The position numbers and the translations under genes are program-made. Below, in pieces: positions 5,364-33,442 of a stretch of 64,000 nt of DNA. Each line of letters starts with the position of its first letter. Position 1 is the first letter of the stretch. This DNA is from a virus (taxonomy: Duplodnaviria > Caudoviricetes): the IMG/VR virus record IMGVR_UViG_3300028738_000008; one strand, 5' to 3'. Below the pieces are notes generated by a model. It saw only the letters and a program-made list of their open reading frames with translations. It did no database searches and was not told the origin of the DNA.

Positions 5364-5435
5364 ATGAGAACAATTTTTAACATAGTACCGCAGCATCAAC
5401 CACAACCCTTGAAGTATCTTCAATCGAATGGCTGA
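5364..5435 (+). CDS. Leader peptide 1 MRTIFNIVPQHQPQPLKYLQSNG (Pro/Gln/His sensor)
   Basis: CCG CAG CAT CAA CCA CAA CCC run, located between promoter and terminator of the Pro/His/Gln tRNA cluster. Confidence 0.85.
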   Translation: MRTIFNIVPQHQPQPLKYLQSNG

Positions 5436-8938: not shown

Positions 8939-9031
8939 ATGAGAAATTTACTTAACATAGAATTATTGGCAGTGGATCAGGTCAACCTCCTATTATGGGC
9001 GGATGAAGATAGATTATGCCATGCTGGTTAA
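8939..9031 (+). CDS. Leader peptide 2 MRNLLNIELLAVDQVNLLLWADEDRLCHAG (Leu/Trp/Ala/Asp/Glu/Val sensor)
   Basis: Consecutive L L L W A D E D codons; lies between promoter and terminator. Confidence 0.85.
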   Translation: MRNLLNIELLAVDQVNLLLWADEDRLCHAG

Positions 9032-9087: not shown

Positions 9088-9131
9088 GTTTATGTACGTT
9101 ATTTGACATGTTGGGTTATAAAATTAAAATT

Positions 9132-14963: not shown

Positions 14964-15041
14964 ATGATGAATGCAACACTTAAATACGGAAAGACTACTA
15001 AATCTTATAAAAAATATAAGATGAAGAAGGACTGTGTGTAA
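14964..15041 (+). CDS. Leader peptide 3 MMNATLKYGKTTKSYKKYKMKKDCV (Lys/Tyr sensor)
   Basis: 8 Lys and 3 Tyr in 25 codons; lies between promoter and terminator. Confidence 0.85.
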   Translation: MMNATLKYGKTTKSYKKYKMKKDCV

Positions 15042-15993: not shown

Positions 15994-16049
15994 GTTACAA
16001 TCAGCTTGGAAATAAGAATGGCGATTGAAGAAATTTAGTCGCCATTTTT

Positions 16050-16089: not shown

Positions 16090-16161
16090 GGCTCGTTAGT
16101 TCAGCGGTTAGGGCGTCTGACTCTAAATCAGAAGGCATGGTTTCGAATACCATACGAGCCG
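16090..16161 (+). tRNA. Amber suppressor tRNA (anticodon CTA)
   Basis: TCTGA-CTCTAAA-TCAGA perfect arm; GGCTCGT/ACGAGCC; G73. Confidence 0.9.
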
Positions 16162-16175
16162 CAAATAATTATAAT

Positions 16176-23098: not shown

Positions 23099-23300
23099 AT
23101 AAATAAAATGCGGTGCTTCTATGAGGCATCGCATTATTTACTTTCACACAATTTTGATTACGGCTCAGATGAAATTGGAAAGCTAGTTATGATTGTCAAA
23201 CCGTCTAAATGTGTTCTCACAGGATGCGGCGATTTTTAATAAAGCATATATAAAAAAAATAAGTAAAATCTTGTGGTGTAAAGACGAACCGCATAAATAT

Positions 23301-23924
23301 ATGACAAATACACAAAAATTTGTAAAGCGAGAATTAGAGATTCTTGCAGCAACAGTTCCAGATGCAGTTATAACACCTTTCGCAAAAGAAATACTTGCTT
23401 TATGTGAAGCATTTGGGAACTCAGGGCAGAGTGGAGGTTCTGCGCCATATACAGCAAGCGTGCTTGCGCAAGCAATTAAGAAACTTTTACTCCAAGAGCC
23501 AATTTGCGACGTAACTGGACATGAGAATGAATGGATTAACGTTAGCGAAGTTTCTAATGACATTGACTTATATCAGAATTGTAGATGTAGTGCTTTATTT
23601 AAAAATAGCAAGGAGAGCAAAGCGAATTATTTGGATGCCATTGTTTGGAAGGGGACGGAAGCATATGACACATTTACAGGTAGAGTTTATATCGACGATA
23701 AAGACTTCGAACTGATTGGGAGTAGCCATTATGTGAAATTTCCGTTTAAACCAAAAACATTTTATATCGATGTGGTTCGAGTTCCAATTACAAAAGAATT
23801 GGCTGAAAGTAGAGGCATGCACTATATTGAAGACGGGTTAAAAGAATGTTACTATACTATTTTAAAAAATCCCAAACAATTGGAAAAGGTTTTTAAATAC
23901 TATGATAAAAGATGTATCGTCTAA
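23301..23924 (+). CDS. Hypothetical phage protein
   Basis: Likely start ATG 23301 (track start 23193). Confidence 0.75.
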   Translation: MTNTQKFVKRELEILAATVPDAVITPFAKEILALCEAFGNSGQSGGSAPYTASVLAQAIKKLLLQEPICDVTGHENEWINVSEVSNDIDLYQNCRCSALFKNSKESKANYLDAIVWKGTEAYDTFTGRVYIDDKDFELIGSSHYVKFPFKPKTFYIDVVRVPITKELAESRGMHYIEDGLKECYYTILKNPKQLEKVFKYYDKRCIV

Positions 23925-24178: not shown

Positions 24179-24240
24179 TATCTCATTATCAGTCAGTTAG
24201 AATTATTACGAAGAATTTTTTCATTTTATATGGAAAAATG

Positions 24241-24271
24241 TTTGGTAGTTAAAAAAATTGTATTACTTTTG
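24241..24271 (+). promoter_or_regulatory. Bacteroidota housekeeping-sigma promoter of tRNA operon 4
   Basis: TTTG-N19-TACTTTTG. Confidence 0.85.
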
Positions 24272-24375
24272 TGCCATGATCATCAAATGAGGCGACGAGA
24301 TTTTATTTTAATACTTCTCAAACTTTTATGAAAATCATACTATTTATATTTTTAAAACATACAAAAAAAACGAAA

Positions 24376-24522
24376 ATGAAAAGGAACATATCATCAGCAA
24401 CCATATCGGGAATTACATCGGGATCAATATCTCGCAATAGTAATGGTATGTCAAGATGTAATTTCATTTTTACAGGTATTAATACAGGCATACAAAAAAT
24501 AGATTGGGTTCTCTTAATGTGA
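24376..24522 (+). CDS. Leader peptide 4 MKRNISSATISGITSGSISRNSNGMSRCNFIFTGINTGIQKIDWVLLM (Ser/Gly/Thr/Ile/Asn/Arg/Met/Cys/Phe sensor)
   Basis: 36 of the 38 residues at positions 2-39 belong to the nine amino acids of the downstream tRNAs; may also start at 24328. Confidence 0.85.
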   Translation: MKRNISSATISGITSGSISRNSNGMSRCNFIFTGINTGIQKIDWVLLM

Positions 24523-24544
24523 GAATTTTAAAACCTTAAACAGG

Positions 24545-24578
24545 AAACCCGATCTACAGCAAATAGATCGGGTTTTTT
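24545..24578 (+). terminator. Attenuator terminator 4
   Basis: AAACCCGATCTA-cagcaaa-TAGATCGGGTTT plus T run. Confidence 0.9.
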
Positions 24579-24629
24579 CGTTGATAGCAGTAAGGCTATC
24601 GTTTCTTTGACATGTTGGAATTAAAATAA

Positions 24630-24714
24630 GCAAGGCTAGCTAAGTGGTCGAAAGTAGGTGATTGCAAACCATCTGGAAGAAATTCCCTCACTGGTTCAAA
24701 TCCAGTGCCTTGCT
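24630..24714 (+). tRNA. tRNA-Cys(GCA) with long variable arm
   Basis: GCAAGGC/GCCTTGC; loop TTGCAAA; U73; 16-nt extra arm GGAA-GAAA-TTCC. Confidence 0.85.
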
Positions 24715-24734
24715 CATATCATATTGATAATCAT

Positions 24735-24810
24735 AGGGTTGTATCACCTCTGCCTGATAAGCAGTTGAAAGTGTAATGGTCACATGTGGGTTCAAGTCCC
24801 ATCCTCCCTA
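24735..24810 (+). tRNA. Atypical D-armless tRNA-Ile(GAT)
   Basis: AGGGTTG/CCTCCCT acceptor, TATCAC linker, CTGC-CTGATAA-GCAG, GTG-TAATGGT-CAC hairpin, T arm GTGGG-TTCAAGT-CCCAT. Confidence 0.65.
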
Positions 24811-24840
24811 CAACAAAGAAAAAATAAAGTTGCTTAATTT

Positions 24841-24866
24841 TGTAACCTTTTCAAAGTTTCTTCGTA
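24841..24866 (+). promoter_or_regulatory. Internal ECF-type promoter
   Basis: TGTAAC-N16-CGTA. Confidence 0.7.
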
Positions 24867-24942
24867 TAATAGAAAAAGATTTATGAGTACAAAAATTAAA
24901 TGATGATTTTTCGAACCATTGTAGTATTTATATTAAAATAGT

Positions 24943-25614
24943 ATGATGAAAGATCAAATTATCGAATTACGAAAATTGGGAAATTCGTACAACGAAATAG
25001 TAAGTAAACTTGGTTGTACAAAGTCAAATGTCTCATATCATTGTGGCAAATTAGGAATTAATTTACATAATGATAATCCGAAAAAAATAAGTGAACAAAT
25101 CGTAGAGTCAATAAGAAACGATAAAATTTCGTTGTCGTCTAAAGAGATTGCTTTAAAATATAATGTTAGCGTAAGTACAGTGAATAAATTTACAAAGATG
25201 AAGTCAAGGTCTTTAGATATAAAACCTGAAAGTAGCGTATGTTTAAATTGTGGTAAAGAAACACCGTATAGAAAAGAGAAACGATTTTGTAGCAATCAAT
25301 GCGGTGCTCAATATATACACAAATTGGCTTATAAAGATTTTTTAGAAAATAACGAAAAATATTGTGTTGGAAATTACACAGCTAAAAATTTTAAGGACTT
25401 TATTGTAGCTGAGCAAAATGATAAATGCTTGATATGTGGAATGTCAGCAATTTGGGAAAACAAAATATTAGTTTTCGTTTTAGATCACATTGACGGTAAT
25501 GCTTCAAATAACAAAAGAGAAAATTTAAGATTAATTTGTCCTAATTGCGATTCGCAAACAAGCACATTTAAATCGAAAACGAAGGTTTCAATGAGAAGAA
25601 ATTATAATAAATAA
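24943..25614 (+). mobile_element. HNH homing endonuclease with N-terminal HTH, inserted in the tRNA operon
   Basis: LDHIDGNASNNKRENLRLICPNCDSQT; CLNC...FCSNQC zinc finger. Confidence 0.9.
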
Positions 25615-25619
25615 TATAT

Positions 25620-25702
25620 GGAAGGTAGCATGCAGTGGTGCATAAGTGGCTTTGAACACCATGCCGATGTAAAAGTCGAGAGTTCGATTCTTTTACCTTC
25701 CG
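25620..25702 (+). tRNA. tRNA-Ser(TGA)
   Basis: GGAAGGT/ACCTTCC; loop TTTGAAC; long arm; G73. Confidence 0.85.
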
Positions 25703-25709
25703 CTTAGAA

Positions 25710-26015
25710 GTAAGATTAGTCTGAGACAAAGTACACGTCATGGCAACCACGCCAGCTTCTACACGCATAGCTGATTGATTAACAGAGTCATTCAGTCTGG
25801 TACTTAGAAGTAGTGTTAGCAATTGTTCTGTTTATTTGCTAATGATATTTATTAATTGCCGTTTCCGAATTGCTTAAGATGCTGCCATTAAGATTCTGTT
25901 TGGGACAATTAGAAAGGATGTGTTGAACTACCCGATTATAAAAGGTCTCCTGAGATTTTATGAATCTTTGTAATAAGGTTCGTGGTCGTGAGTAAGAGGC
26001 TCACATCGGAAATAA
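25710..26015 (+). ncRNA. Candidate structured ncRNA (about 300 nt) between tRNA-Ser and tRNA-Phe
   Basis: No credible ORF; hairpins CAGCT/AGCTG, TTAGCAA/TTGCTAA, GTGAG/CTCAC; long-range TTTCCGA/TCGGAAA. Confidence 0.35.
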
Positions 26016-26028
26016 AATATTTAAAATT

Positions 26029-26102
26029 GGGGAGGTAGCTCAGTTGGTAGTAGCGGTGGATTGAAGATCCACAGGTCGTCGGTTCAAGTCCGACTCTCCC
26101 CA
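26029..26102 (+). tRNA. tRNA-Phe(GAA)
   Basis: GTGGA-TTGAAGA-TCCAC. Confidence 0.92.
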
Positions 26103-26183
26103 CGAAAAACAATGGTGCTTAGTATTGTTACTTCAATGGATGAAACAAAACACAATGCTGCAAAATTCCTTGTTTTTATTATC

Positions 26184-26257
26184 GCAGTGATGGTGTTTAA
26201 TGGTTAGCATATAACCTTGCCAAGGTTGAGGTGGAAGTTCGAATCTTCTTCATTGCT
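26184..26257 (+). tRNA. tRNA-Gly(GCC)
   Basis: TAACC-TTGCCAA-GGTTG; U73. Confidence 0.9.
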
Positions 26258-26329
26258 CTTTTTTTATATTTATTATTTCGGTGATGAAATCTAAATATTT
26301 TTTTGATGTTCGCTCTTTGACATATTTTT

Positions 26330-26468
26330 GAGCAGATGTATCGATAACATAATAATCAATAGAATTATTGGCGCATGCTGTTATTTTTAAATTATCATTG
26401 ATCTGGGTTTGACGTAATTTTCTCTCGCCAAAAACAGGTAAATTAAATTTAATCCCGATCACCTGCTC
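26330..26468 (+). ncRNA. Candidate rod-shaped ncRNA (6S-like architecture)
   Basis: GAGCAG..ATCG / CGAT..CTGCTC closing stem, AT-rich bubble, inner TTGGCG/CGCCAA stem. Confidence 0.35.
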
Positions 26469-26481
26469 CACAAATTAAATT

Positions 26482-26567
26482 GCAGTAATCGCATAGTTGG
26501 TCGATTGCGCCAGCCTTCCAAGCTGGAAAGAGAAATCACGGCGAGGGTTCGAATCCCTCTTACTGCT
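26482..26567 (+). tRNA. tRNA-Gly(TCC) with long variable region
   Basis: CCAGC-CTTCCAA-GCTGG; 16-nt variable region; U73. Confidence 0.85.
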
Positions 26568-26583
26568 CAATAAATTGTTAATA

Positions 26584-26856
26584 ATGAAACTGAAAAACAT
26601 ATTGAAAGCCTTATGGGGTCAGTTACCAGCACAAAGAGCATTTAGGAATTTTTTTATCACTGGAAATGCTTTAGGCATGTTTAACATAAGAAGTCATCAG
26701 TGTGAAAATGGTACTCCAAAGGTTATGTACAATACCAGAGCCACAGCACAAAAAGCTGCTGATAGCATGGGTAAAAAAATGAATAAGCATTTCTCGGTTT
26801 ATAAATGTATCTATTGTGATGGGTATCACTTAGGTAAGAATAGAGATAATAAATAG
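26584..26856 (+). CDS. Hypothetical protein with YKCxxCxGYH motif
   Basis: ATG 26584; C-terminal zinc-finger-like motif. Confidence 0.7.
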   Translation: MKLKNILKALWGQLPAQRAFRNFFITGNALGMFNIRSHQCENGTPKVMYNTRATAQKAADSMGKKMNKHFSVYKCIYCDGYHLGKNRDNK

Positions 26857-26927
26857 TGGTATAGCTCAGTTGGTAGAGCATGGGTATCATAAGCCCTGTG
26901 TCATAGGTTCGATTCCTATTGCCGCTA
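26855..26927 (+). tRNA. tRNA-Met/Ile2(CAT)
   Basis: GGGT-ATCATAA-GCCC; paired 1:72 (elongator type). Confidence 0.85.
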
Positions 26928-26945
26928 CAAACTAATAAATATATA

Positions 26946-27176
26946 ATGGTAGAAAGTAAGTTTAATTCACACGGAAAATTGAAAATGGATAATGATACAA
27001 AAATCAAGGCTGGCGATACTGTTGAATACAGCTATGCTGATAATAACCCAAACGATAGAACAAGAAAAATGATCGTAACGCTTAGAGGCACTTGGGATGG
27101 TGATAAGGTTTCATTCAACGATAAGAAAAATACCGTAGTTAAAACTACTCATTGGCTAACATTAATAGAAGAATAA
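26946..27176 (+). CDS. Hypothetical protein
   Basis: ATG 26946, between tRNAs. Confidence 0.6.
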   Translation: MVESKFNSHGKLKMDNDTKIKAGDTVEYSYADNNPNDRTRKMIVTLRGTWDGDKVSFNDKKNTVVKTTHWLTLIEE

Positions 27177-27177
27177 T

Positions 27178-27315
27178 ATGCAAGAAAAAGAAGATGCTAT
27201 TGAGGAAAGGGATGATAAGCTTTCATACGAGAATTATAATCATGTTGATGGCAAATTTCATAAAGTAAGACGTAAGAATACGCATCTTACGCCAAAGAAG
27301 AAAAAACGAAAGTAA
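27178..27315 (+). CDS. Small basic hypothetical protein (45 aa)
   Basis: MQEKED...HLTPKKKKRK, translated by eye. Confidence 0.55.
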   Translation: MQEKEDAIEERDDKLSYENYNHVDGKFHKVRRKNTHLTPKKKKRK

Positions 27316-27323
27316 AAATATAT

Positions 27324-27413
27324 TGCGAGTTAGAGAAGTCAGGCCTATCTCACCAGTCTCATAAGCTGGAGTACCGTTTAAAAGTATCGTTGGTTCGAAT
27401 CCAGCACTCGCTT
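27324..27413 (+). tRNA. tRNA-Met(CAT), initiator-like 1:72 mismatch, long variable arm
   Basis: CCAGT-CTCATAA-GCTGG; 19-nt variable region. Confidence 0.8.
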
Positions 27414-27427
27414 CATTAAAAACACAC

Positions 27428-27512
27428 TGCGGAATGGTGTAATTGGCAACACACGAGGCTCATAACCTTGAGACATTAAATGCTTGTATTGGTTCGAATC
27501 CAATTTCCGCTT
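27428..27512 (+). tRNA. tRNA-Met(CAT), initiator-like 1:72 mismatch, long variable arm
   Basis: CGAGG-CTCATAA-CCTTG; 17-nt variable region. Confidence 0.8.
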
Positions 27513-27526
27513 CTATAATTATAATT

Positions 27527-27600
27527 GGTCGTGTGGCGCAATTGGTTAGCGCAATTGTCTTATACACAAAAGGTTGTGGGTTCAAGTCCCACCATGACCA
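27527..27600 (+). tRNA. tRNA-Ile(TAT)
   Basis: TTGT-CTTATAC-ACAA; GGTCGTG/CATGACC. Confidence 0.8.
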
Positions 27601-27612
27601 CAACAAATACAT

Positions 27613-27693
27613 GCTTAGTTAGCCAAGTGGCAAGGCAGCAGACTGTTAATCTGCCGAAGAAATTCATCGTAGGTTCGATCCCTACACTAAGCG
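27613..27693 (+). tRNA. tRNA-Asn(GTT) with long variable region
   Basis: GCAGA-CTGTTAA-TCTGC; 14-nt variable GAA-GAAA-TTC; G73. Confidence 0.88.
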
Positions 27694-27762
27694 CAAATAC
27701 TTTATATTTTTTGTTGCATATCTAATTTATTATCATTAAATTTGCAGCCTAAAACATTTAAT

Positions 27763-27987
27763 ATGATAGTAAAATATGTACATCATGACACTGAGGTAAG
27801 TGTGCAAGAAGAAATGCTTGGAAAACATCGTGAGCATTGCTTATGTTATCAGGGTTGTAAGTTCTTCAAACCTGAAACCAGAAAAGGAAATTGTGGCATT
27901 GCAAATGCCATTTATAAGAATTGCGTTCTTTACGGTGTTGTAACACCAGTTTGGGAATGTCCTAAATACGAGAAGGAAACTGTGTAA
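27763..27987 (+). CDS. Cys-rich hypothetical protein
   Basis: HCLCYQGC...C...C...WECP. Confidence 0.7.
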   Translation: MIVKYVHHDTEVSVQEEMLGKHREHCLCYQGCKFFKPETRKGNCGIANAIYKNCVLYGVVTPVWECPKYEKETV

Positions 27988-28235
27988 TGGATGAATTAAT
28001 ACCAGCACCTGAACAGAATATGTTCAACATTGAAGTTTATTTGGACGACGGAAGGGTATTCGAATACAAAGTAGCGTCAGCCGAAAAAGTTCGAGAACAT
28101 GCTCATGCCATTATCATGACAGGCTACAGGCATAATGATGGATTTTTATTTGAACATTATCCACCGCACAGAATCTTGAAGGTCAAGAGCAATAACATAA
28201 GCACTCAGTATAAAGACGTAACAAAAGGAACGTAA
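27987..28235 (+). CDS. Hypothetical protein
   Basis: Coupled ORF. Confidence 0.75.
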   Translation: MDELIPAPEQNMFNIEVYLDDGRVFEYKVASAEKVREHAHAIIMTGYRHNDGFLFEHYPPHRILKVKSNNISTQYKDVTKGT

Positions 28236-28540
28236 TGGAATTACAAAAATTGATTTTAGCCGAGGACGTTTACGACGCCTTGGAAACAGGTAAGAATTGT
28301 ACGATCAGAAAAGGTCGCAGAGACATTCAATTAGACAAGCTTTTATTTGAATCGCTTGACGAAAAAAGAACAACAGTCGTAAATGTCGTAATGACAATTC
28401 ATTGTAAGCTACAGCATATTCCAGACGAGTTTGTATGGAACGACGGATTCACAGGACATGAAAACATGCTTACAGAAATGAAAAGGTTTTATCCTGACAT
28501 TCAAATGGATACCGAATGTACTGTAATTATATTTGAATAA
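28235..28540 (+). CDS. ASCH/PUA-like domain protein
   Basis: GKNCTIRKG...DGF...LxxFYP pattern. Confidence 0.65.
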   Translation: MELQKLILAEDVYDALETGKNCTIRKGRRDIQLDKLLFESLDEKRTTVVNVVMTIHCKLQHIPDEFVWNDGFTGHENMLTEMKRFYPDIQMDTECTVIIFE

Positions 28541-28662
28541 TGAATTTCGAGACATTATTGGCAATAATTATAGCAATTCCATTTTCAATGATTTGTCTAC
28601 GTTGCACATTGAAAAATTGTGAGAATCCTTCATATGAATCATGGAGAATTGAGAACGAATAA
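28540..28662 (+). CDS. Small membrane peptide (40 aa)
   Basis: TAATG coupling; hydrophobic N-terminus. Confidence 0.4.
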   Translation: MNFETLLAIIIAIPFSMICLRCTLKNCENPSYESWRIENE

Positions 28663-28728
28663 AAATATAAATGCTGGAACAACTCTGTACGTGAGCCAGC
28701 TACTATTGCAATAGTAACGTACACTCAC

Positions 28729-28800
28729 GCCGATATCATATAATTGGTATTATGCTGGCTCTGTAACCCAGACATCGGGAATCGTCCTCTCGTATCGGCT
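28729..28800 (+). tRNA. tRNA-Thr(TGT)
   Basis: GCCGATA/TATCGGC Thr-type acceptor; loop TCTGTAA (atypical C33). Confidence 0.7.
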
Positions 28801-28806
28801 CAATAT

Positions 28807-28880
28807 GCATCCTTAGCTATAATTGGTAGAGCACCTGTTTAGTAAGCAGGGGGTTGTCGGTTCGAGTCCGTCAGGATGCT
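28807..28880 (+). tRNA. tRNA-Thr(AGT)
   Basis: CCTGT-TTAGTAA-GCAGG; GCATCCT/AGGATGC. Confidence 0.85.
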
Positions 28881-28901
28881 CAAACATTTAAATTAAAAAC
28901 A

Positions 28902-29126
28902 ATGGTAAATACATTAAAGGGTAAATTGATTAAAACTGTTATAAAGAGTGCTTGCAGAGCAAAATTTACTAAAGAGAAGGTGCAAGAGTATCTAAAGGGA
29001 TATTTAGCATTTGAGACAACTGTAACAAATTATTCGCTTGATGTAGATTCAGCATATTTTGATATTGTCTATGTGGACAATCATCAAAATCATTTAATTA
29101 GTGTTAATATAAAAATCGTAAAATAA
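28902..29126 (+). CDS. Hypothetical protein
   Basis: ATG 28902 after tRNA-Thr. Confidence 0.6.
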   Translation: MVNTLKGKLIKTVIKSACRAKFTKEKVQEYLKGYLAFETTVTNYSLDVDSAYFDIVYVDNHQNHLISVNIKIVK

Positions 29127-29133
29127 AAGTAAT

Positions 29134-29526
29134 ATGACAATTCAAGATCAGATCAACTTGGACTTGCACCAAGCAATGTTAAACAAAGACAAGGAACTTT
29201 TAACATTTTTAAGGGTTGTAGCCAGTGATTTTTACCTAAAAGGAAAGGTCATTGACGATGAAATGGCGAAGAAAGTTTTACGCACATTAAAGGAAGAAGC
29301 AACCATAATGAACAACCAATACGAAATTGACGTTATTGCTAAGTATTTGCCAGCATTATTAAGCGAAGCAGAGATCAAAGCACTCGTTATTGAGGCTATT
29401 AAAGCCAATGGCTTCGCTGGAATGAAAGACATGGGTAAAGTTATGGCTGAATTAAAAAAGTTGCCTACAGCCTCTCAAATTGACAATACTTATGCCAGTA
29501 AATTAACAAAGGAATTGCTAGCATAG
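29134..29526 (+). CDS. GatB/YqeY domain protein
   Basis: DLHQAMLNKD...KYLPALLSEAEI...KDMGKVM signature. Confidence 0.85.
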   Translation: MTIQDQINLDLHQAMLNKDKELLTFLRVVASDFYLKGKVIDDEMAKKVLRTLKEEATIMNNQYEIDVIAKYLPALLSEAEIKALVIEAIKANGFAGMKDMGKVMAELKKLPTASQIDNTYASKLTKELLA

Positions 29527-29534
29527 TAAAATAT

Positions 29535-29610
29535 GGAGGCGTATCACAACAATCTTCTAAATTGTTTTAGTGTAATTGGACTGATGTGGGTTCGACTCCC
29601 ATCGCCTCTT
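29535..29610 (+). tRNA. Atypical D-armless tRNA-Arg(TCT)
   Basis: GGAGGCG/CGCCTCT, TATCAC linker, AACAAT-CTTCTAA-ATTGTT, TTAGT-GTAATTGG-ACTGA hairpin, T arm GTGGG-TTCGACT-CCCAT. Confidence 0.65.
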
Positions 29611-29627
29611 CAAGAATAATAACTATT

Positions 29628-29903
29628 ATGAATATAATTAAAGTAGAAAACGTAAAAGGCATTGAAAATCGTGCAAAGGGTATGACGGTATTGCACGATT
29701 ATAAAATGGATGGTAGACATGTTCAGTCTGTTATAGTTGTTTTAAGCTATGATGATCTTAAAAGTATTAGCAATATAATCGAAAAATTGAGGGGATATAA
29801 TGTTAGTTGTTTGGTCATGCCAGAAGCTTTACATTTTACTCCAGAAGAAAGAATATTGCTTGAACCTTTATTCAATAAAAGTTTTACTGTAAGTTATTAT
29901 TAA
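29628..29903 (+). CDS. Hypothetical protein
   Basis: ATG 29628. Confidence 0.6.
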   Translation: MNIIKVENVKGIENRAKGMTVLHDYKMDGRHVQSVIVVLSYDDLKSISNIIEKLRGYNVSCLVMPEALHFTPEERILLEPLFNKSFTVSYY

Positions 29904-29908
29904 ACAAT

Positions 29909-29982
29909 GGCTATGTAGCTCAACTGGATGGAGCACTTCGCTACGAACGAAGAGGTTGGGGGTTCGAATCCCTTCATGGTCA
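29909..29982 (+). tRNA. tRNA-Arg(ACG)
   Basis: CTTCG-CTACGAA-CGAAG. Confidence 0.92.
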
Positions 29983-29995
29983 CAAATGCATATAT

Positions 29996-30877
29996 ATGAA
30001 AAAGAACATAGTATTTTATAACGCCTATCATAAAGGTGACTTACATTACTCAAGACAATTTATGAAAGATATTCAAAAGAATCTCTCGACTAAATATGAG
30101 GGTTTCTTTTATTCTGATAAATATCCTGATGATAATATTTATTTTGACTTAGTTGATTTTAAACGACTTCCGTTTAAAAATATGCTTAATGAAAATTCTC
30201 AAGTTACTTATGACGAAAAAAATGTTTACATTAATACTTGGATAGGTCAAGGTGGGTACAAATATGTTGTTGAGTCTAAATGCTCTTTAAAGTCTTATCA
30301 TAATATGTATAAGGACATTTATGTAACATTAGGCATACCTTTAAAGAGAATTGATGCATATATTCCAACGATTGATTATACAAAGCTTGACCAACAGCAT
30401 ACCGTAAATATTTTGAATTTTAACAGTCAGCAAAAACTCACCAACGTAAAGAAGAAGATACTTATATGTAATGGCGATGTATTATCATTTCAGTCTGAGA
30501 ATTTTAAATTTGAATACATTGTAAACATACTTGCATTCATGAATCTCAATTGTACTTTTATATGTACCAGTAAATCTTTTCTACCCAAAACCGATAATGT
30601 TGTTTTCTGCGAGGATATCATAAAAAAAGACGGCTGTGATCTAAATGAAATTTCTTTTCTATCAACATTTTGCGATATAATCGTCGGCAGAGCTTCTGGG
30701 CCTTATGCATTCACGCATGTAAAGGAAAACATTGGGAATAAAGATATCGATTATATTTCATTATGTAAAAATATAGAAGAAGGTATTTGGTATCAGGGCA
30801 AAGCATCTAATAGCTGGTCTGACAAATATACCATAAATAATATTGTTGACATGATTAATTTGAAAATAAATGACTAA
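29996..30877 (+). CDS. Putative glycosyltransferase (GT-B-like)
   Basis: N-terminal HKGDLHYSR and DIIVGRASGP motifs; first gene of the sugar cluster. Confidence 0.55.
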   Translation: MKKNIVFYNAYHKGDLHYSRQFMKDIQKNLSTKYEGFFYSDKYPDDNIYFDLVDFKRLPFKNMLNENSQVTYDEKNVYINTWIGQGGYKYVVESKCSLKSYHNMYKDIYVTLGIPLKRIDAYIPTIDYTKLDQQHTVNILNFNSQQKLTNVKKKILICNGDVLSFQSENFKFEYIVNILAFMNLNCTFICTSKSFLPKTDNVVFCEDIIKKDGCDLNEISFLSTFCDIIVGRASGPYAFTHVKENIGNKDIDYISLCKNIEEGIWYQGKASNSWSDKYTINNIVDMINLKIND

Positions 30878-31541
30878 AAAAGTATTAATTTTTACAAGTG
30901 CTTGGGGCAGAAGACCTCTAATGACACGACAATGCATGCTGAGTGTTATGGCTCAGAGTTATAAAGATCTTGTCCATGCGGTTAACATTACTTTAGACGG
31001 CGACGCAACCACAAAAGATTATTCTCCGATGTATAACGATCTTGTTAAATTGGATAATAGATTTATCGTTAATACCAATCTGAATGGTCATACACATCAT
31101 AATAATATGCTTGCGATAAAGTCCGTTCCAAATTTCATGGAGTATGATTATTTTTTGAAGATGGATAATGACGATATATACAAAACTCATTACGTTGAGA
31201 ATATTGTAAATTTCTTTGAAGCAAATCCTGATGTAGATATTACATCGACAAAAATAACCGATCACTTAAATGGTTATGACCTTTATAAAGGCTCATGGGA
31301 TAATTTTGGCGCAAATCCAGATGGAACAGATTATCATATGCCTATGACATTTGCATTTACACGTAAAGCATTGGAGTCTATTATCGGACTAACAAATATT
31401 TATGGCTTTGATGATATGATGTGGCGTGACGCATGGGCTAAAGATGGCTTGAAGCATAAGGCTGTTCATAATGAAAACGAAGTTATTTTCAATGTACATG
31501 GCGGAAATGTCTCAACAGGCAGTTGGTTAAAAAAGAAATGA
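30870..31541 (+). CDS. GT2-family glycosyltransferase
   Basis: SVMAQSYKD, FLKMDNDDIY (DxD) and FDDMMW motifs. Confidence 0.75.
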   Translation: MTKKVLIFTSAWGRRPLMTRQCMLSVMAQSYKDLVHAVNITLDGDATTKDYSPMYNDLVKLDNRFIVNTNLNGHTHHNNMLAIKSVPNFMEYDYFLKMDNDDIYKTHYVENIVNFFEANPDVDITSTKITDHLNGYDLYKGSWDNFGANPDGTDYHMPMTFAFTRKALESIIGLTNIYGFDDMMWRDAWAKDGLKHKAVHNENEVIFNVHGGNVSTGSWLKKK

Positions 31542-31544
31542 ATC

Positions 31545-32159
31545 ATGATAAATGGAGATCGTAGTAAAATAAATTTATTCGTATGCGTTTATAGTACTGA
31601 GAATAAACGGAGACAGAATGAAATGGATAAATGTTTACGAATTAATAAAAGGAATCAATTTCTCAATGTTGTGCCAATTTATAATCAGGATAGACTAACA
31701 TATAATGATTTCTTTAAAATCATAAATGAAGCGTCTGGAAATGATGACATTAACATAATAACAAATTCGGATATATATTTTGACTCTACTATTGAATTAG
31801 CTCAACATATGTTATATAAGGAATTATATGCATTAACTCGCTGGGATTTAAATGGTAATGACTTAACATTTTATAATCTTAGTTATAGTCAGGATAGCTG
31901 GATATTTAGAGGTAAAATTGAAGATATTAATGCACCTTATGAATTAGGAAAAATGGGATGCGATAATAAAATAGCTTTTGAATTTTTTAATAAAGGTTAT
32001 AAAGTGCTAAACCCATCTAAAAGCATTATTACAACTCATTTACATGAATCAAATTTTAGAACATATGATTATTTTGATCAGTATGATGGGTGGACTCTGT
32101 GGATTGAGCCTCATTTTATTTTTGAAGAGCCTGTATTTAATAAATATATGAAATCCTAA
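31545..32159 (+). CDS. Glycosyltransferase-like protein
   Basis: IITNSDIYFD, ALTRWD, SQDSWIF and GCDNKIA motifs. Confidence 0.6.
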   Translation: MINGDRSKINLFVCVYSTENKRRQNEMDKCLRINKRNQFLNVVPIYNQDRLTYNDFFKIINEASGNDDINIITNSDIYFDSTIELAQHMLYKELYALTRWDLNGNDLTFYNLSYSQDSWIFRGKIEDINAPYELGKMGCDNKIAFEFFNKGYKVLNPSKSIITTHLHESNFRTYDYFDQYDGWTLWIEPHFIFEEPVFNKYMKS

Positions 32160-33146
32160 ATGAGAAAAGCACTAATAATCGGTATAACAGGACAGGACGG
32201 TTCATATCTCGCAGAATATTTATTGGAAATGGGATATGATGTTCACGGTATTGTAAGAAGAAATTCATTACCCAATTCGCAATCGTATCGTCTTGAGTCG
32301 ATAGAAAAAGAAATTCATACCTATTATGGTGACCTATTAGATCAAACATCCTTAGATAGTACTCTTGCTGAGGTTAAACCTGATGAAATTTATAATCTGG
32401 GTGCTCAATCTCATGTTAGAATTAGTTATGATATTCCACAATACACATCACAGGTAAATGCCATAGGCGTTTTAAATCTACTTGAGTCGTATAAGAAAAT
32501 ATGTCCAGAAGCTAAATTATACCAAGCCAGCACTTCCGAAATGTTTGGATTGAATATTGACGATGATAATTTCCAGAGAGAAACAACGGTTTTGAATCCT
32601 GTTTCCCCTTATGGTATATCGAAAGTATTTGCTTATGGCATGGTAAGGCATTATAGACGAGCATATGATTTACATGCATGTAATGGCATTTTGTTTAATC
32701 ATGAATCTCCAAGACGTGGTGACAACTTTGTTACAAGTAAAGTCGTTAAAAGTGCATGTATGATTAAATTAGGACGACAAGAAAAACTTGAATTAGGCAA
32801 TATGGACTCATACAGGGATTGGGGGCATGCTAAGGATTACGTGAAAACAATGCATTTAATTATCAATCATGAAACAGCTGATGATTTTGTTGTTAGCACT
32901 ATGGAAACTCGCTCAGTAAGAGATATGTGCGATATAGTTTTTAAATATTTGGATTTGAATTATATGGATTATGTTGTTCAAAATCCTAAATTTATGAGAG
33001 CAGAGGAATTACCATATTTAAGAGGTGATTCAACAAAAATGAGAAATACGTTCAATTGGAAGCCTACTTACACATTCGAAGAAATGATGTACGAAATGAC
33101 TGCTCATTGGATGGATGTATTACAGGGAATTAAATCAAAAAGATAA
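32160..33146 (+). CDS. gmd: GDP-mannose 4,6-dehydratase
   Basis: GITGQDGSYLAE, YNLGAQSHV, YQASTSEMFG, SPYGISK and NHESPRRG motifs. Confidence 0.95.
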   Translation: MRKALIIGITGQDGSYLAEYLLEMGYDVHGIVRRNSLPNSQSYRLESIEKEIHTYYGDLLDQTSLDSTLAEVKPDEIYNLGAQSHVRISYDIPQYTSQVNAIGVLNLLESYKKICPEAKLYQASTSEMFGLNIDDDNFQRETTVLNPVSPYGISKVFAYGMVRHYRRAYDLHACNGILFNHESPRRGDNFVTSKVVKSACMIKLGRQEKLELGNMDSYRDWGHAKDYVKTMHLIINHETADDFVVSTMETRSVRDMCDIVFKYLDLNYMDYVVQNPKFMRAEELPYLRGDSTKMRNTFNWKPTYTFEEMMYEMTAHWMDVLQGIKSKR

Positions 33147-33159
33147 GAGTTCGATATAA

Positions 33160-33291
33160 TGCAGCGAGAATAAATACATCGAGGTTAAAGGGTATGAAAC
33201 AGAGTTAGATCGAATTAAATGGAGTCAATTTACTGAACCATTGGAAGTTTGGAAGAGAAAAGAATTGTTAAAATTAGGACTAAAATTATAA
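33160..33291 (+). pseudogene. C-terminal remnant of a PD-(D/E)XK-type endonuclease
   Basis: Start-less frame ENKYIEVKGYETELDRIKWSQF, bounded upstream by TAA. Confidence 0.45.
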
Positions 33292-33336
33292 TAATTGACT
33301 TGTATTTGTTAATAATTATAAGTATTTTTGTAAAAT

Positions 33337-33427
33337 GGATAGATGCCAGAGTCTGGTTTATCGGGACAACCTGCTAAGTTGTTGTACGGCGAAAGTCGTG
33401 CCGAGGGTTCGAATCCCTCTCTATCCG
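33337..33427 (+). tRNA. tRNA-Ser(GCT)
   Basis: ACAAC-CTGCTAA-GTTGT; long arm; G73; own TAnnTTTG promoter at about 33323-33330. Confidence 0.92.
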
Positions 33428-33442
33428 CATAAATGATTGGAT

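What the first reader, a model, noticed from the sequence alone, without database searches (positions are those of the whole stretch)
24376..24714. Attenuator 4: nine-amino-acid sensor with an 11-bp antiterminator
Seen: 36 of 38 residues at positions 2-39 are S/G/T/I/N/R/M/C/F, the identities of the 16 downstream tRNAs. The leader includes ATA codons (tRNA-Ile TAT) and AGA/AGG codons (tRNA-Arg TCT). TAGATTGGGTT (24500-10) is a near copy of the terminator's 3' arm and can pair over 11 bp with AACCCGATCTA (24546-56). This is the clearest antiterminator in the window. Caveat: internal promoters (24841, 24925, about 27737, about 33323) mean distal tRNAs may be only partly controlled.
Basis: partly seen in the sequence, partly recalled or inferred. 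Interest (0 to 1): 0.85.

Follow-up and report, generated by a model that had tools for sequence, protein, structure and literature searches.

The report
Leader-peptide attenuator gating phage tRNA genes
A giant peat-soil phage puts a 48-codon "test" gene, written almost only in the nine amino acids carried by the tRNA genes behind it, in front of a switchable transcription stop. It therefore probably makes those tRNAs only when ribosomes read those codons slowly, a control I could not find published for tRNA genes.

Summary
ORF 24376-24522 has 36 of 38 residues at positions 2-39 drawn from S, G, T, I, N, R, M, C and F. These are the identities of the tRNAs at 24630-33428. I count 13 tRNAs plus one degenerate copy, not 16.

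A strong intrinsic terminator (24543-24580) follows the ORF. The segment 24500-24510 pairs over 11 bp with the terminator's 5' arm (duplex -15.7 kcal/mol, none of 1000 shuffles as good). This pairing is the minimum-energy fold of the nascent RNA.

A Bacteroidota-type promoter (24241-24271) precedes the unit. Three other units in the window share the layout, each matched to its own tRNA block.

Comparison decides the case:
- Two further phage lineages keep an Att4-type leader at only 24-33% identity, with the same composition and a co-varying antiterminator.
- A 425-kb relative partitions the amino acids differently, and its four leaders follow that partition.
- Shuffling arrays among 11 units never reached the observed match (0 of 100,000).

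The best reading is ribosome-mediated attenuation that senses decoding capacity and feeds back on tRNA supply. Function is inferred, not shown. Five literature searches found no description. Unpublished AI notes of this scan record the same design on this genome and on other DNA.

The parts
24241..24271 (+). Host-type (Bacteroidota consensus) promoter: TTTG, 19 nt, TAnnTTTG
   Evidence: One of only 7 strict matches on the + strand of the 64-kb window; 3 of the 7 head leader units. It aligns with the promoters of units 1-3.
24310..24345 (+). Partial second copy of the promoter's upstream element inside the roughly 100-nt 5' UTR. It lacks the two consensus boxes. The in-frame ATG at 24328 lies inside it.
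   Evidence: Alignment with the other three promoter regions. This makes 24376, not 24328, the likely start.
24376..24522 (+). Leader ORF: 48 codons plus TGA, with an A-rich start context and no Shine-Dalgarno sequence
   Evidence: The frame is kept in L012 through two 3-nt indels. No Pfam family matches.
24379..24492 (+). Sensor segment, codons 2-39: 36 of 38 are codons for S, G, T, I, N, R, M, C or F, spread over many synonymous codons
24500..24510 (+). 5' strand of the antiterminator, a near copy of the terminator's 3' arm; it encodes I-D-W-V
   Evidence: Invariant between the window and L012.
24543..24556 (+). Terminator 5' arm, shared with the antiterminator
24564..24580 (+). Terminator 3' arm and U-tract
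   Evidence: The hairpin alone is -18.4 kcal/mol.
24582..24601 (+). Small second hairpin after the U-tract, conserved in L012; role unknown
24603..24620 (+). Conserved 18-mer TTCTTTGACATGTTGGAA just before the first tRNA; role unknown
   Evidence: Exact in 74 IMG/VR stretches, nearly always just before the first tRNA of a block. In the window it occurs only here and, with 3 mismatches, at 9099-9116 before array 2.
24630..24715 (+). tRNA-Cys(GCA), first gene of the controlled array
26029..33428 (+). Rest of array 4: Phe, Gly x2, Met x3, Ile(TAT), Asn, Thr, Arg(TCT), Arg(ACG), Ser(GCT). Protein-coding genes are interspersed (HNH endonuclease, ASCH-like, YqeY-like and unnamed ORFs such as 29996-30877).

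Best explanation
This is a ribosome-mediated (leader-peptide) transcription attenuator that gates read-through from a host-type promoter into a phage tRNA array.

Proposed sequence of events:
1. Host RNA polymerase starts near 24278 and transcribes the 48-codon leader.
2. If ribosomes decode the 38 sensor codons (Ser, Gly, Thr, Ile, Asn, Arg, Met, Cys, Phe) at normal speed, the lead ribosome reaches the last codons and the stop (24520-24522).
3. There it covers 24500-24510, so the terminator hairpin (24543-24577) forms and transcription ends at the U-tract.
4. If any of those codons is read slowly because its tRNA is scarce or uncharged, the ribosome stalls at least about 13 nt upstream of 24500.
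5. The free segment then pairs with the terminator's 5' arm, the terminator cannot form, and polymerase runs on into tRNA-Cys and the following tRNA genes.

Because the products are the tRNAs for the sensed codons, the circuit is a negative feedback on decoding capacity.

Shown from sequence: the promoter, the ORF, its composition, the two exclusive helices, their geometry and their conservation. Inferred: translation of the ORF, stalling, regulated read-through, and the physiological trigger.
For: 1. Anatomy. A strict Bacteroidota-type promoter lies at 24241-24271. The ORF, terminator and array follow in order.

2. Composition. Positions 2-39 hold 36 of 38 residues in the set; the whole peptide holds 38 of 47 against a background of 0.469 (p = 1.8e-6).

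3. Four parallel units in the window. Each leader is enriched 1.7- to 5-fold for its own array's amino acids and depleted for the others. The true pairing is the best of 24 permutations.

4. Independent partition. The 425-kb relative (L021/L018) groups the tRNAs as E,D,V,F,I,N,W / M,K,R / Y,T,P,A,S,C,H,G,V,R / Q,L. Its four leaders follow that grouping, and again the true pairing is the best of 24. Shuffling arrays among 11 units gave 0 of 100,000 shuffles as good as observed.

5. Att4-type orthologs in two more lineages. These are L160/L119/L124 and L181, the first syntenic with the VWA gene. They are 24-33% identical to this leader but have 31 of 33 and 25 of 33 core residues in the set. They precede Thr/Cys/Ile/Ser/Phe/Gly/Met/Asn/Arg arrays.

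6. Antiterminator. The pairing is the minimum-energy fold of the nascent RNA in all three lineages, although the paired sequences differ (TAGATTGGGTT, GTGTCGGG, GATACGGGTTC). This is co-variation. In 10 of 15 units the best partner of the terminator's 5' arm is significant and ends 1-17 nt before the end of the stop codon.

7. Geometry. In-set residues make up 75% of leader cores but 46% of the last eight residues, as expected from a ribosome footprint.

8. Window versus L012. Differences cluster in the sensor segment. Two 3-nt indels keep the frame, and 7 of 8 replacements at in-set positions stay in the set although they are chemically radical. The antiterminator and terminator stems are invariant; one loop base differs.
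Against: - There are no expression data. The only RNA hint is one 151-nt metatranscriptome contig lying on 24328-24452.
- No conserved pause or anti-antiterminator hairpin exists. The intra-ORF hairpin 24409-24465 has z = -1.4 and is not kept in L012. Untranslated RNA is therefore predicted to read through, which differs from trp.
- The array is 9 kb long with interspersed genes and one strict promoter match at 26302-26330.
- The conserved 18-mer at 24603-24620, between terminator and tRNA-Cys, might be a second entry point for transcription.
- Antiterminators of units 1 and 2 in the window are weak.
- Making more tRNA would not relieve amino-acid starvation, so what the sensor responds to is inferred.
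Confidence: 0.78

Rival explanations
1. The short ORF is an independent small gene, or is untranslated, and the hairpin is a constitutive terminator or insulator. The tRNAs would then be transcribed only from elements downstream of it, such as the conserved 18-mer or internal promoters.
For: The 18-mer at 24603-24620 is extremely conserved and always sits just before a first tRNA. Its TTCTTTG core resembles the promoter's TAccTTTG box (my reading). A strict promoter match lies at 26302-26330 inside the array. In L053 the 18-mer follows a promoter-like box.
Against: This does not explain why leader composition tracks the downstream array in every lineage and under different partitions (0 of 100,000 permutations). 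It also does not explain why a copy of the terminator's 3' arm sits at the ORF end and co-varies with the terminator. The spacing between the U-tract's TTTG and the 18-mer core varies from 14 to 17 nt, unlike the 19 nt of the leader promoters. In relatives of unit 2, a co-varying helix joins sequence before the terminator to sequence after the U-tract. That helix can exist only in read-through RNA.
Confidence: 0.1
2. The unit senses general translation activity (any ribosome reaching the stop) rather than particular tRNAs. Read-through would rise whenever translation is shut down, and the composition match would be secondary.
For: Without a ribosome the nascent RNA folds into the antiterminator by default. 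No 1:2-type hairpin restores termination.
Against: A general sensor needs no matched composition. Yet the match is specific per array, is maintained through radical substitutions, and follows re-partitioning of the tRNAs.
Confidence: 0.08
3. The leader RNA senses tRNAs directly by codon-anticodon pairing without translation (T-box-like), or the terminated leader acts in trans as a small RNA.
For: The terminated product would be an abundant RNA of about 300 nt. One metatranscriptome contig covers only the leader.
Against: No T-box or other Rfam family matches. Start and stop codons and the reading frame are conserved, and indels come in threes. Only one frame gives the match.
Confidence: 0.03

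Closest known systems
Multivalent leader-peptide attenuators of enterobacterial amino-acid operons (ilvGMEDA leader with Ile/Leu/Val codons, thrL with Thr/Ile, also trpL, hisL, pheL, leuL); from established knowledge
   Same: A promoter-proximal short ORF is enriched in regulatory codons. An intrinsic terminator lies before the structural genes. An antiterminator shares the terminator's 5' arm and is masked by a ribosome that reaches the ORF end. More than one amino acid can be sensed.
   Different: The controlled genes are tRNAs, not biosynthetic enzymes. Nine amino acids are sensed by 38 dispersed codons rather than a short run. There is no 1:2 pause or anti-antiterminator hairpin, so untranslated RNA is predicted to read through. 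The element is phage-borne with a Bacteroidota-type promoter and no Shine-Dalgarno sequence. It matches no Rfam leader family.
pheM leader of the E. coli pheST (phenylalanyl-tRNA synthetase) operon; from established knowledge
   Same: Leader-peptide attenuation is applied to a gene of the translation apparatus, so the output acts on the sensed quantity (charged tRNA).
   Different: It senses a single amino acid and controls a synthetase rather than tRNA genes. It is cellular, not viral.
T-box riboswitches
   Same: They read the state of a specific tRNA and switch between an antiterminator and a terminator upstream of genes for the same amino acid.
   Different: A T-box binds the tRNA directly and needs no translation. 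There is no T-box match here, whereas a conserved translatable ORF is present.
tRNA gene clusters of large phages (T4, T5, vibriophage KVP40 and jumbo phages); from established knowledge
   Same: These are phage-encoded tRNA arrays, often interrupted by homing endonuclease genes, thought to sustain translation when host tRNAs are depleted or cleaved.
   Different: I know of no described cis-regulatory sensor for those arrays, and five full-text searches found none.

Membership tests
Leader-peptide (ribosome-mediated) transcription attenuator | Short ORF with start and stop between the promoter and the terminator, with the reading frame conserved | tested here: met
   ORF 24376-24522 lies downstream of the promoter at 24241-24271. 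The frame is kept in L012 by two 3-nt indels. Orthologous ORFs occur in L160 and L181.
Leader-peptide (ribosome-mediated) transcription attenuator | ORF enriched in codons cognate to what the controlled genes supply | tested here: met
   36 of 38 residues are in the set; binomial p = 1.8e-6 over the whole peptide. The permutation test gave 0 of 100,000.
Leader-peptide (ribosome-mediated) transcription attenuator | Intrinsic terminator between the ORF and the controlled genes | tested here: met
   A 13-15 bp stem plus a run of six T at 24543-24580 is the minimum-energy fold.
Leader-peptide (ribosome-mediated) transcription attenuator | Mutually exclusive antiterminator that uses the terminator's 5' arm, placed where a ribosome at the ORF end masks it | tested here: met
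   24500-24510 pairs with 24546-24556 at -15.7 kcal/mol (p < 0.002). It is the minimum-energy fold of the nascent RNA and lies 10-22 nt before the stop codon. It co-varies in L160 and L181.
Leader-peptide (ribosome-mediated) transcription attenuator | Upstream pause or anti-antiterminator (1:2) hairpin that synchronises ribosome and polymerase and enforces termination without translation | tested here: not met
   Hairpin 24409-24465 has z = -1.4 and is not conserved in L012 or L181. The ribosome-free nascent fold is the antiterminator.
Leader-peptide (ribosome-mediated) transcription attenuator | Read-through increases when the cognate charged tRNA is limiting | not testable with these tools
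   No usable RNA data exist: only DNA runs from peat, plus one metatranscriptome contig on the leader.
Rfam leader families (Trp_leader, His_leader, Thr_leader, Leu_leader and others) | Covariance-model score at or above the gathering threshold | tested here: not met
   Nothing but tRNAs reaches gathering score. The best leader match is Trp_leader at 14 bits against 41, E = 5.
T-box riboswitch | T-box covariance model with specifier loop and T-box sequence | tested here: not met
   No match at E <= 10 in 24200-24640 or at gathering score in the window.

The most novel reading that the evidence does not exclude
Large phages of Bacteroidota-like hosts carry a modular tRNA-pool sensing system. 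The 20 amino acids are split into a few blocks. Each block's tRNA genes lie behind a leader whose codons sample exactly that block. The phage then replaces on demand only those tRNA species that become limiting during infection, for example after host tRNA turnover or cleavage by anticodon-nuclease defences. On this reading the attenuators are a counter-defence and homeostasis device, and a new target class for leader-peptide attenuation.
Probability: 0.4. Interest if true: 0.9.

Novelty: new variant of a known kind. Interest (0 to 1): 0.8.

Why it matters
Leader-peptide attenuation is a textbook mechanism, known for amino-acid biosynthesis and a few synthetase genes. Here the same logic appears to regulate tRNA genes themselves, in viruses, with sensors covering up to nine amino acids (19 in some relatives).

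If confirmed, it would:
- show that phages measure the host's decoding capacity codon by codon and adjust their own tRNA supply;
- give a testable explanation for why phage tRNA genes are grouped as they are;
- link phage tRNAs to tRNA-targeting host defences;
- provide compact, programmable sensors of tRNA availability.

The design is widespread. The associated 18-mer alone is exact in 74 IMG/VR stretches, on contigs up to 675 kb.

Tried and rejected
- Homologs of the upstream Tad3-like gene: 11 loci (L001-L011) have no leader or tRNA array downstream, so that gene is not linked to the unit.
- Whole genome: none is held for this window.
- GenBank phages: megablast found no relative beyond a 60-nt tRNA match.
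- RNA evidence: the DNA holders are peat metagenomes only. One soil metatranscriptome gave a single 151-nt contig on 24328-24452 and nothing meaningful on about 24 kb more. This is a hint at best.
- First 15-mer scan for the motif: mostly chance hits, so it was repeated with the 18-mer.
- Pause hairpin inside the ORF: not significant and not conserved.
- Small hairpin 24506-24529 as an anti-antiterminator: only -6.3 kcal/mol, and it loses to the antiterminator in the nascent fold.
- Column-wise covariation count on the unit-2 alignment: not run, because the window lineage pairs in a register shifted by one column. I used per-sequence duplex energies with shuffles instead.
- Codon-level match to particular anticodons: the leader uses many synonymous codons, which fits broad sampling but is not a discriminating test.
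- The 18-mer as a standard promoter: its spacing to an upstream TTTG is variable and too short, and it occurs only at array heads. This is not excluded.

Full report
**What is there**

The window is AT-rich, phage-like DNA with 33-34 tRNA genes, all on the + strand. No close relative exists among GenBank phages. Near-identical DNA occurs in many peat metagenomes.

At the finding's coordinates the sequence reads, in order:
- a strict match to the Bacteroidota promoter consensus (TTTG, 19 nt, TAnnTTTG) at 24241-24271;
- a 5' UTR of about 100 nt that contains a partial second copy of the promoter's upstream element;
- an ATG in an A-rich context at 24376;
- a 48-codon ORF ending in TGA at 24520-24522;
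- a strong intrinsic terminator at 24543-24580;
- a small hairpin;
- a conserved 18-mer at 24603-24620;
- tRNA-Cys at 24630-24715.

That the promoter consensus is of Bacteroidota type is my own knowledge of the family's promoters. The host itself was not tested.

**Check of the observation**

All the central statements hold. Positions 2-39 of the peptide contain 36 of 38 residues from S, G, T, I, N, R, M, C and F. The last nine residues contain two. The downstream tRNAs are Cys, Phe, Gly x2, Met x3, Ile(TAT), Asn, Thr, Arg(TCT), Arg(ACG) and Ser. These are exactly those nine identities.

I count 13 tRNAs plus one degenerate Ile(GAT)-like copy, which is intact in the relative L012.

Against the amino-acid composition of the window's long ORFs (set frequency 0.469), 38 of 47 gives p = 1.8e-6. 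Only 0.4% of 462 small ORFs in the window reach that fraction.

ATA (5 times), AGA and AGG are present. The coordinates of the 11-nt antiterminator strand and of its partner are exact.

**Structure**

| RNA modelled | Minimum-energy fold | Energy (kcal/mol) |
|---|---|---|
| Full RNA, 24495-24585 | terminator | -27.1 |
| Full RNA, antiterminator forced | antiterminator | -19.5 |
| Nascent RNA, before the 3' arm emerges (24495-24561) | antiterminator, 24500-24510 with 24546-24556 | -17.6 |
| Ribosome footprint at the stop codon masked | terminator only | -20.8 |

The duplex between the terminator's 5' arm and the upstream 60 nt is -15.7 kcal/mol. None of 500 or 1000 shuffles reached it. The antiterminator occupies the loop-proximal pairs of the terminator stem. 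The 3' arm therefore has no free toehold. Slow displacement is my inference from this.

The ribosome-free nascent RNA also folds into the antiterminator. I found no conserved 1:2-type hairpin. The intra-ORF hairpin 24409-24465 has z = -1.4 and is absent from L012 and L181. The predicted default without translation is therefore read-through, which is a real difference from trp.

**Context in the window**

Three more units have the same layout, with homologous promoters:

| Leader ORF | tRNAs that follow |
|---|---|
| 5364-5435, with the core PQHQPQP | Pro, His, Gln |
| 8939-9031, rich in L, D, E, V, A, W | Asp, Glu, Val, Leu, Ala, Trp |
| 14964-15041, rich in K and Y | Lys, Tyr |

Each leader is enriched 1.7- to 5-fold for its own set and depleted for the others. 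The true pairing is the best of 24 permutations. Three of the seven strict promoter matches on the + strand head these units.

**Relatives**

A close relative (L012/L013, IMG/VR contig 3300025140_000001) has the same four units. In unit 4 its differences from the window cluster in the sensor segment. Two 3-nt indels keep the frame. Seven of eight replacements at in-set positions stay in the set, although they are chemically radical (G to R, C to F, F to R, R to M). The antiterminator and terminator stems are invariant, and one loop base differs.

Two further lineages carry an Att4-type unit:
- L160/L119/L124 has the unit directly after the ortholog of the VWA gene.
- L181 carries it in a similar position.

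Their leaders are 24% and 33% identical to this one. They have 31 of 33 and 25 of 33 core residues in the set. They precede arrays of Thr, Cys, Ile, Ser, Phe, Gly, Met, Asn and Arg tRNAs.

In both lineages the nascent RNA folds into an antiterminator built from different sequence. L160 pairs GTGTCGGG with CCCGACAC. L181 pairs GATACGGGTTC with GAACCCGAATC.

**A different partition**

The 425-kb contig behind L018/L021 groups its tRNAs differently, and its four leaders follow:

| tRNA block | Core of its leader |
|---|---|
| E, D, V, F, I, N, W | FFGNINVEFNSNFIEDW |
| M, K, R | IKRRTIKRMMRKM |
| Y, T, P, A, S, C, H, G, V, R | TTSSTYHFASGRCSAGYPVAPTS |
| Q, L | LLQQLQLLQL |

Other contigs have single "all-in-one" leaders. 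One (L050) has 19 amino-acid types in 32 residues and lacks only Pro. It stands before an array of 19 tRNA identities that also lacks Pro in the fetched stretch.

Shuffling arrays among 11 non-orthologous units never reached the observed match (0 of 100,000).

Across 15 units, in-set residues make up 75% of the cores but 46% of the last eight residues. In 10 of 15 units the significant partner of the terminator's 5' arm ends 1-17 nt before the end of the stop codon. This is the geometry expected if a ribosome at the ORF end masks the antiterminator and a ribosome stalled further upstream does not.

**Mechanism**

The best-supported reading is ribosome-mediated attenuation.
- Fast decoding of the sensor codons brings the ribosome onto 24500-24510 and gives termination.
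- Slow decoding of any of them leaves that strand free and gives read-through into the tRNA genes.

Because the products are the tRNAs for the sensed codons, the circuit is a negative feedback on decoding capacity. More tRNA would not cure amino-acid starvation. I therefore infer that the relevant signal is tRNA abundance or integrity during infection, for example after host tRNA decay or anticodon-nuclease defences. That trigger is speculative.

The anatomy, statistics and conservation are shown. Translation, stalling and regulated read-through are inferred.

**Caveats and rivals**

The array is 9 kb long and holds protein-coding genes (HNH endonuclease, ASCH-like, YqeY-like and others). It also holds one strict promoter match at 26302-26330. 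Distal tRNAs may therefore have other inputs.

The 18-mer at 24603-24620 is exact in 74 IMG/VR stretches and almost always sits 20-30 nt before a first tRNA. In the window it occurs only at the heads of arrays 2 and 4. It could be a processing signal, a protein-binding site or an unconventional promoter. If it is a promoter, the attenuator adds to a basal input rather than being the only one.

In relatives of unit 2, a co-varying helix joins sequence before the terminator to sequence after the U-tract. It can form only in read-through RNA, which argues that read-through transcripts matter biologically.

RNA data are nearly absent. One 151-nt contig of a soil metatranscriptome lies on 24328-24452 and continues as the L012 variant. 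Nothing else on about 24 kb was covered.

**Comparison with the known, and novelty**

The unit works like the multivalent leader-peptide attenuators of enterobacterial amino-acid operons and like the pheM leader of pheST. It matches no Rfam leader family and no T-box.

Five full-text searches found no description of leader-peptide attenuation of tRNA genes or phage tRNA arrays.

Notes of this scan record the same reading for this genome and for many other phage genomes. Those are unpublished AI notes, not independent evidence, but they agree that the design is widespread.

I class it as a new variant of a known kind: a known mechanism with a new target class, a new sensor breadth and a new biological setting.

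Noticed in passing
window 24603-24620 and 9099-9116; 74 IMG/VR loci (L027-L179): The 18-mer TTCTTTGACATGTTGGAA is conserved exactly across very divergent large-phage contigs (up to 675 kb). It almost always lies 20-30 nt before the first tRNA of a block. In L160 two Thr tRNAs were inserted between the terminator and the motif. Its role is unknown: processing site, binding site or unusual promoter.
   Followed up: partly
L015 14669-14776, L016, L055, L063, L079, L088, L094, L103 (unit-2 type relatives): A helix joins sequence between the stop codon and the terminator to sequence after the U-tract (ACACAC with GTGTGT, CCTCC with GGAGG, CTCCTTTCT with AGAAAGGA). It co-varies between lineages and can form only in read-through RNA. 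It may be a processing stem. It is absent from the window's units 2 and 4.
   Followed up: partly
window 23193-23924: The gene two ORFs upstream of the leader matches Pfam Tad3, a type I Thoeris inhibitor (E = 5e-20). It is a candidate anti-defence gene. Its homologs in 11 other contigs are not next to tRNA arrays.
   Followed up: partly
window 16090-16162: A tRNA with anticodon CTA (amber suppressor; ARAGORN labels it Pyl) has its own strong terminator upstream (16015-16048). None of the window's four leader ORFs ends in TAG.
   Followed up: no
window 24727-24812 versus L012 5230-5303; window 29535-29610: A degenerate tRNA-Ile(GAT)-like sequence follows tRNA-Cys, and it is intact in L012. It carries an insert in the variable region. 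The Arg(TCT) tRNA at 29535-29610 carries a similar insert (AGTGTAAT-like). Many tRNAs here are unusually long: Cys 86, Gly 87, Met 91, Pro 86 and Trp 90 nt.
   Followed up: no
window 24943-25614; L013 9455-9766; L015 15799-16497: HNH-type homing endonuclease ORFs interrupt the tRNA arrays. In L013 one is inserted between the terminator of unit 1 and tRNA-Pro, separating the attenuator from its array by about 640 nt.
   Followed up: no
L050 998-1096, L098 6534-6620, L053 1209-1310: Other phages have single 'all-in-one' leaders with 15-19 different amino acids in 28-33 residues, before arrays holding nearly all tRNA identities. The amino acids missing from the leader are also missing from the fetched array (Pro in L050; Gly in L098; L, A, G, D and P in L053).
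   Followed up: partly
window 24310-24345: The 5' UTR of unit 4 holds a partial duplicate of the promoter's upstream element. This suggests the unit arose by duplication of a promoter-leader cassette, and it explains the in-frame ATG at 24328.
   Followed up: partly
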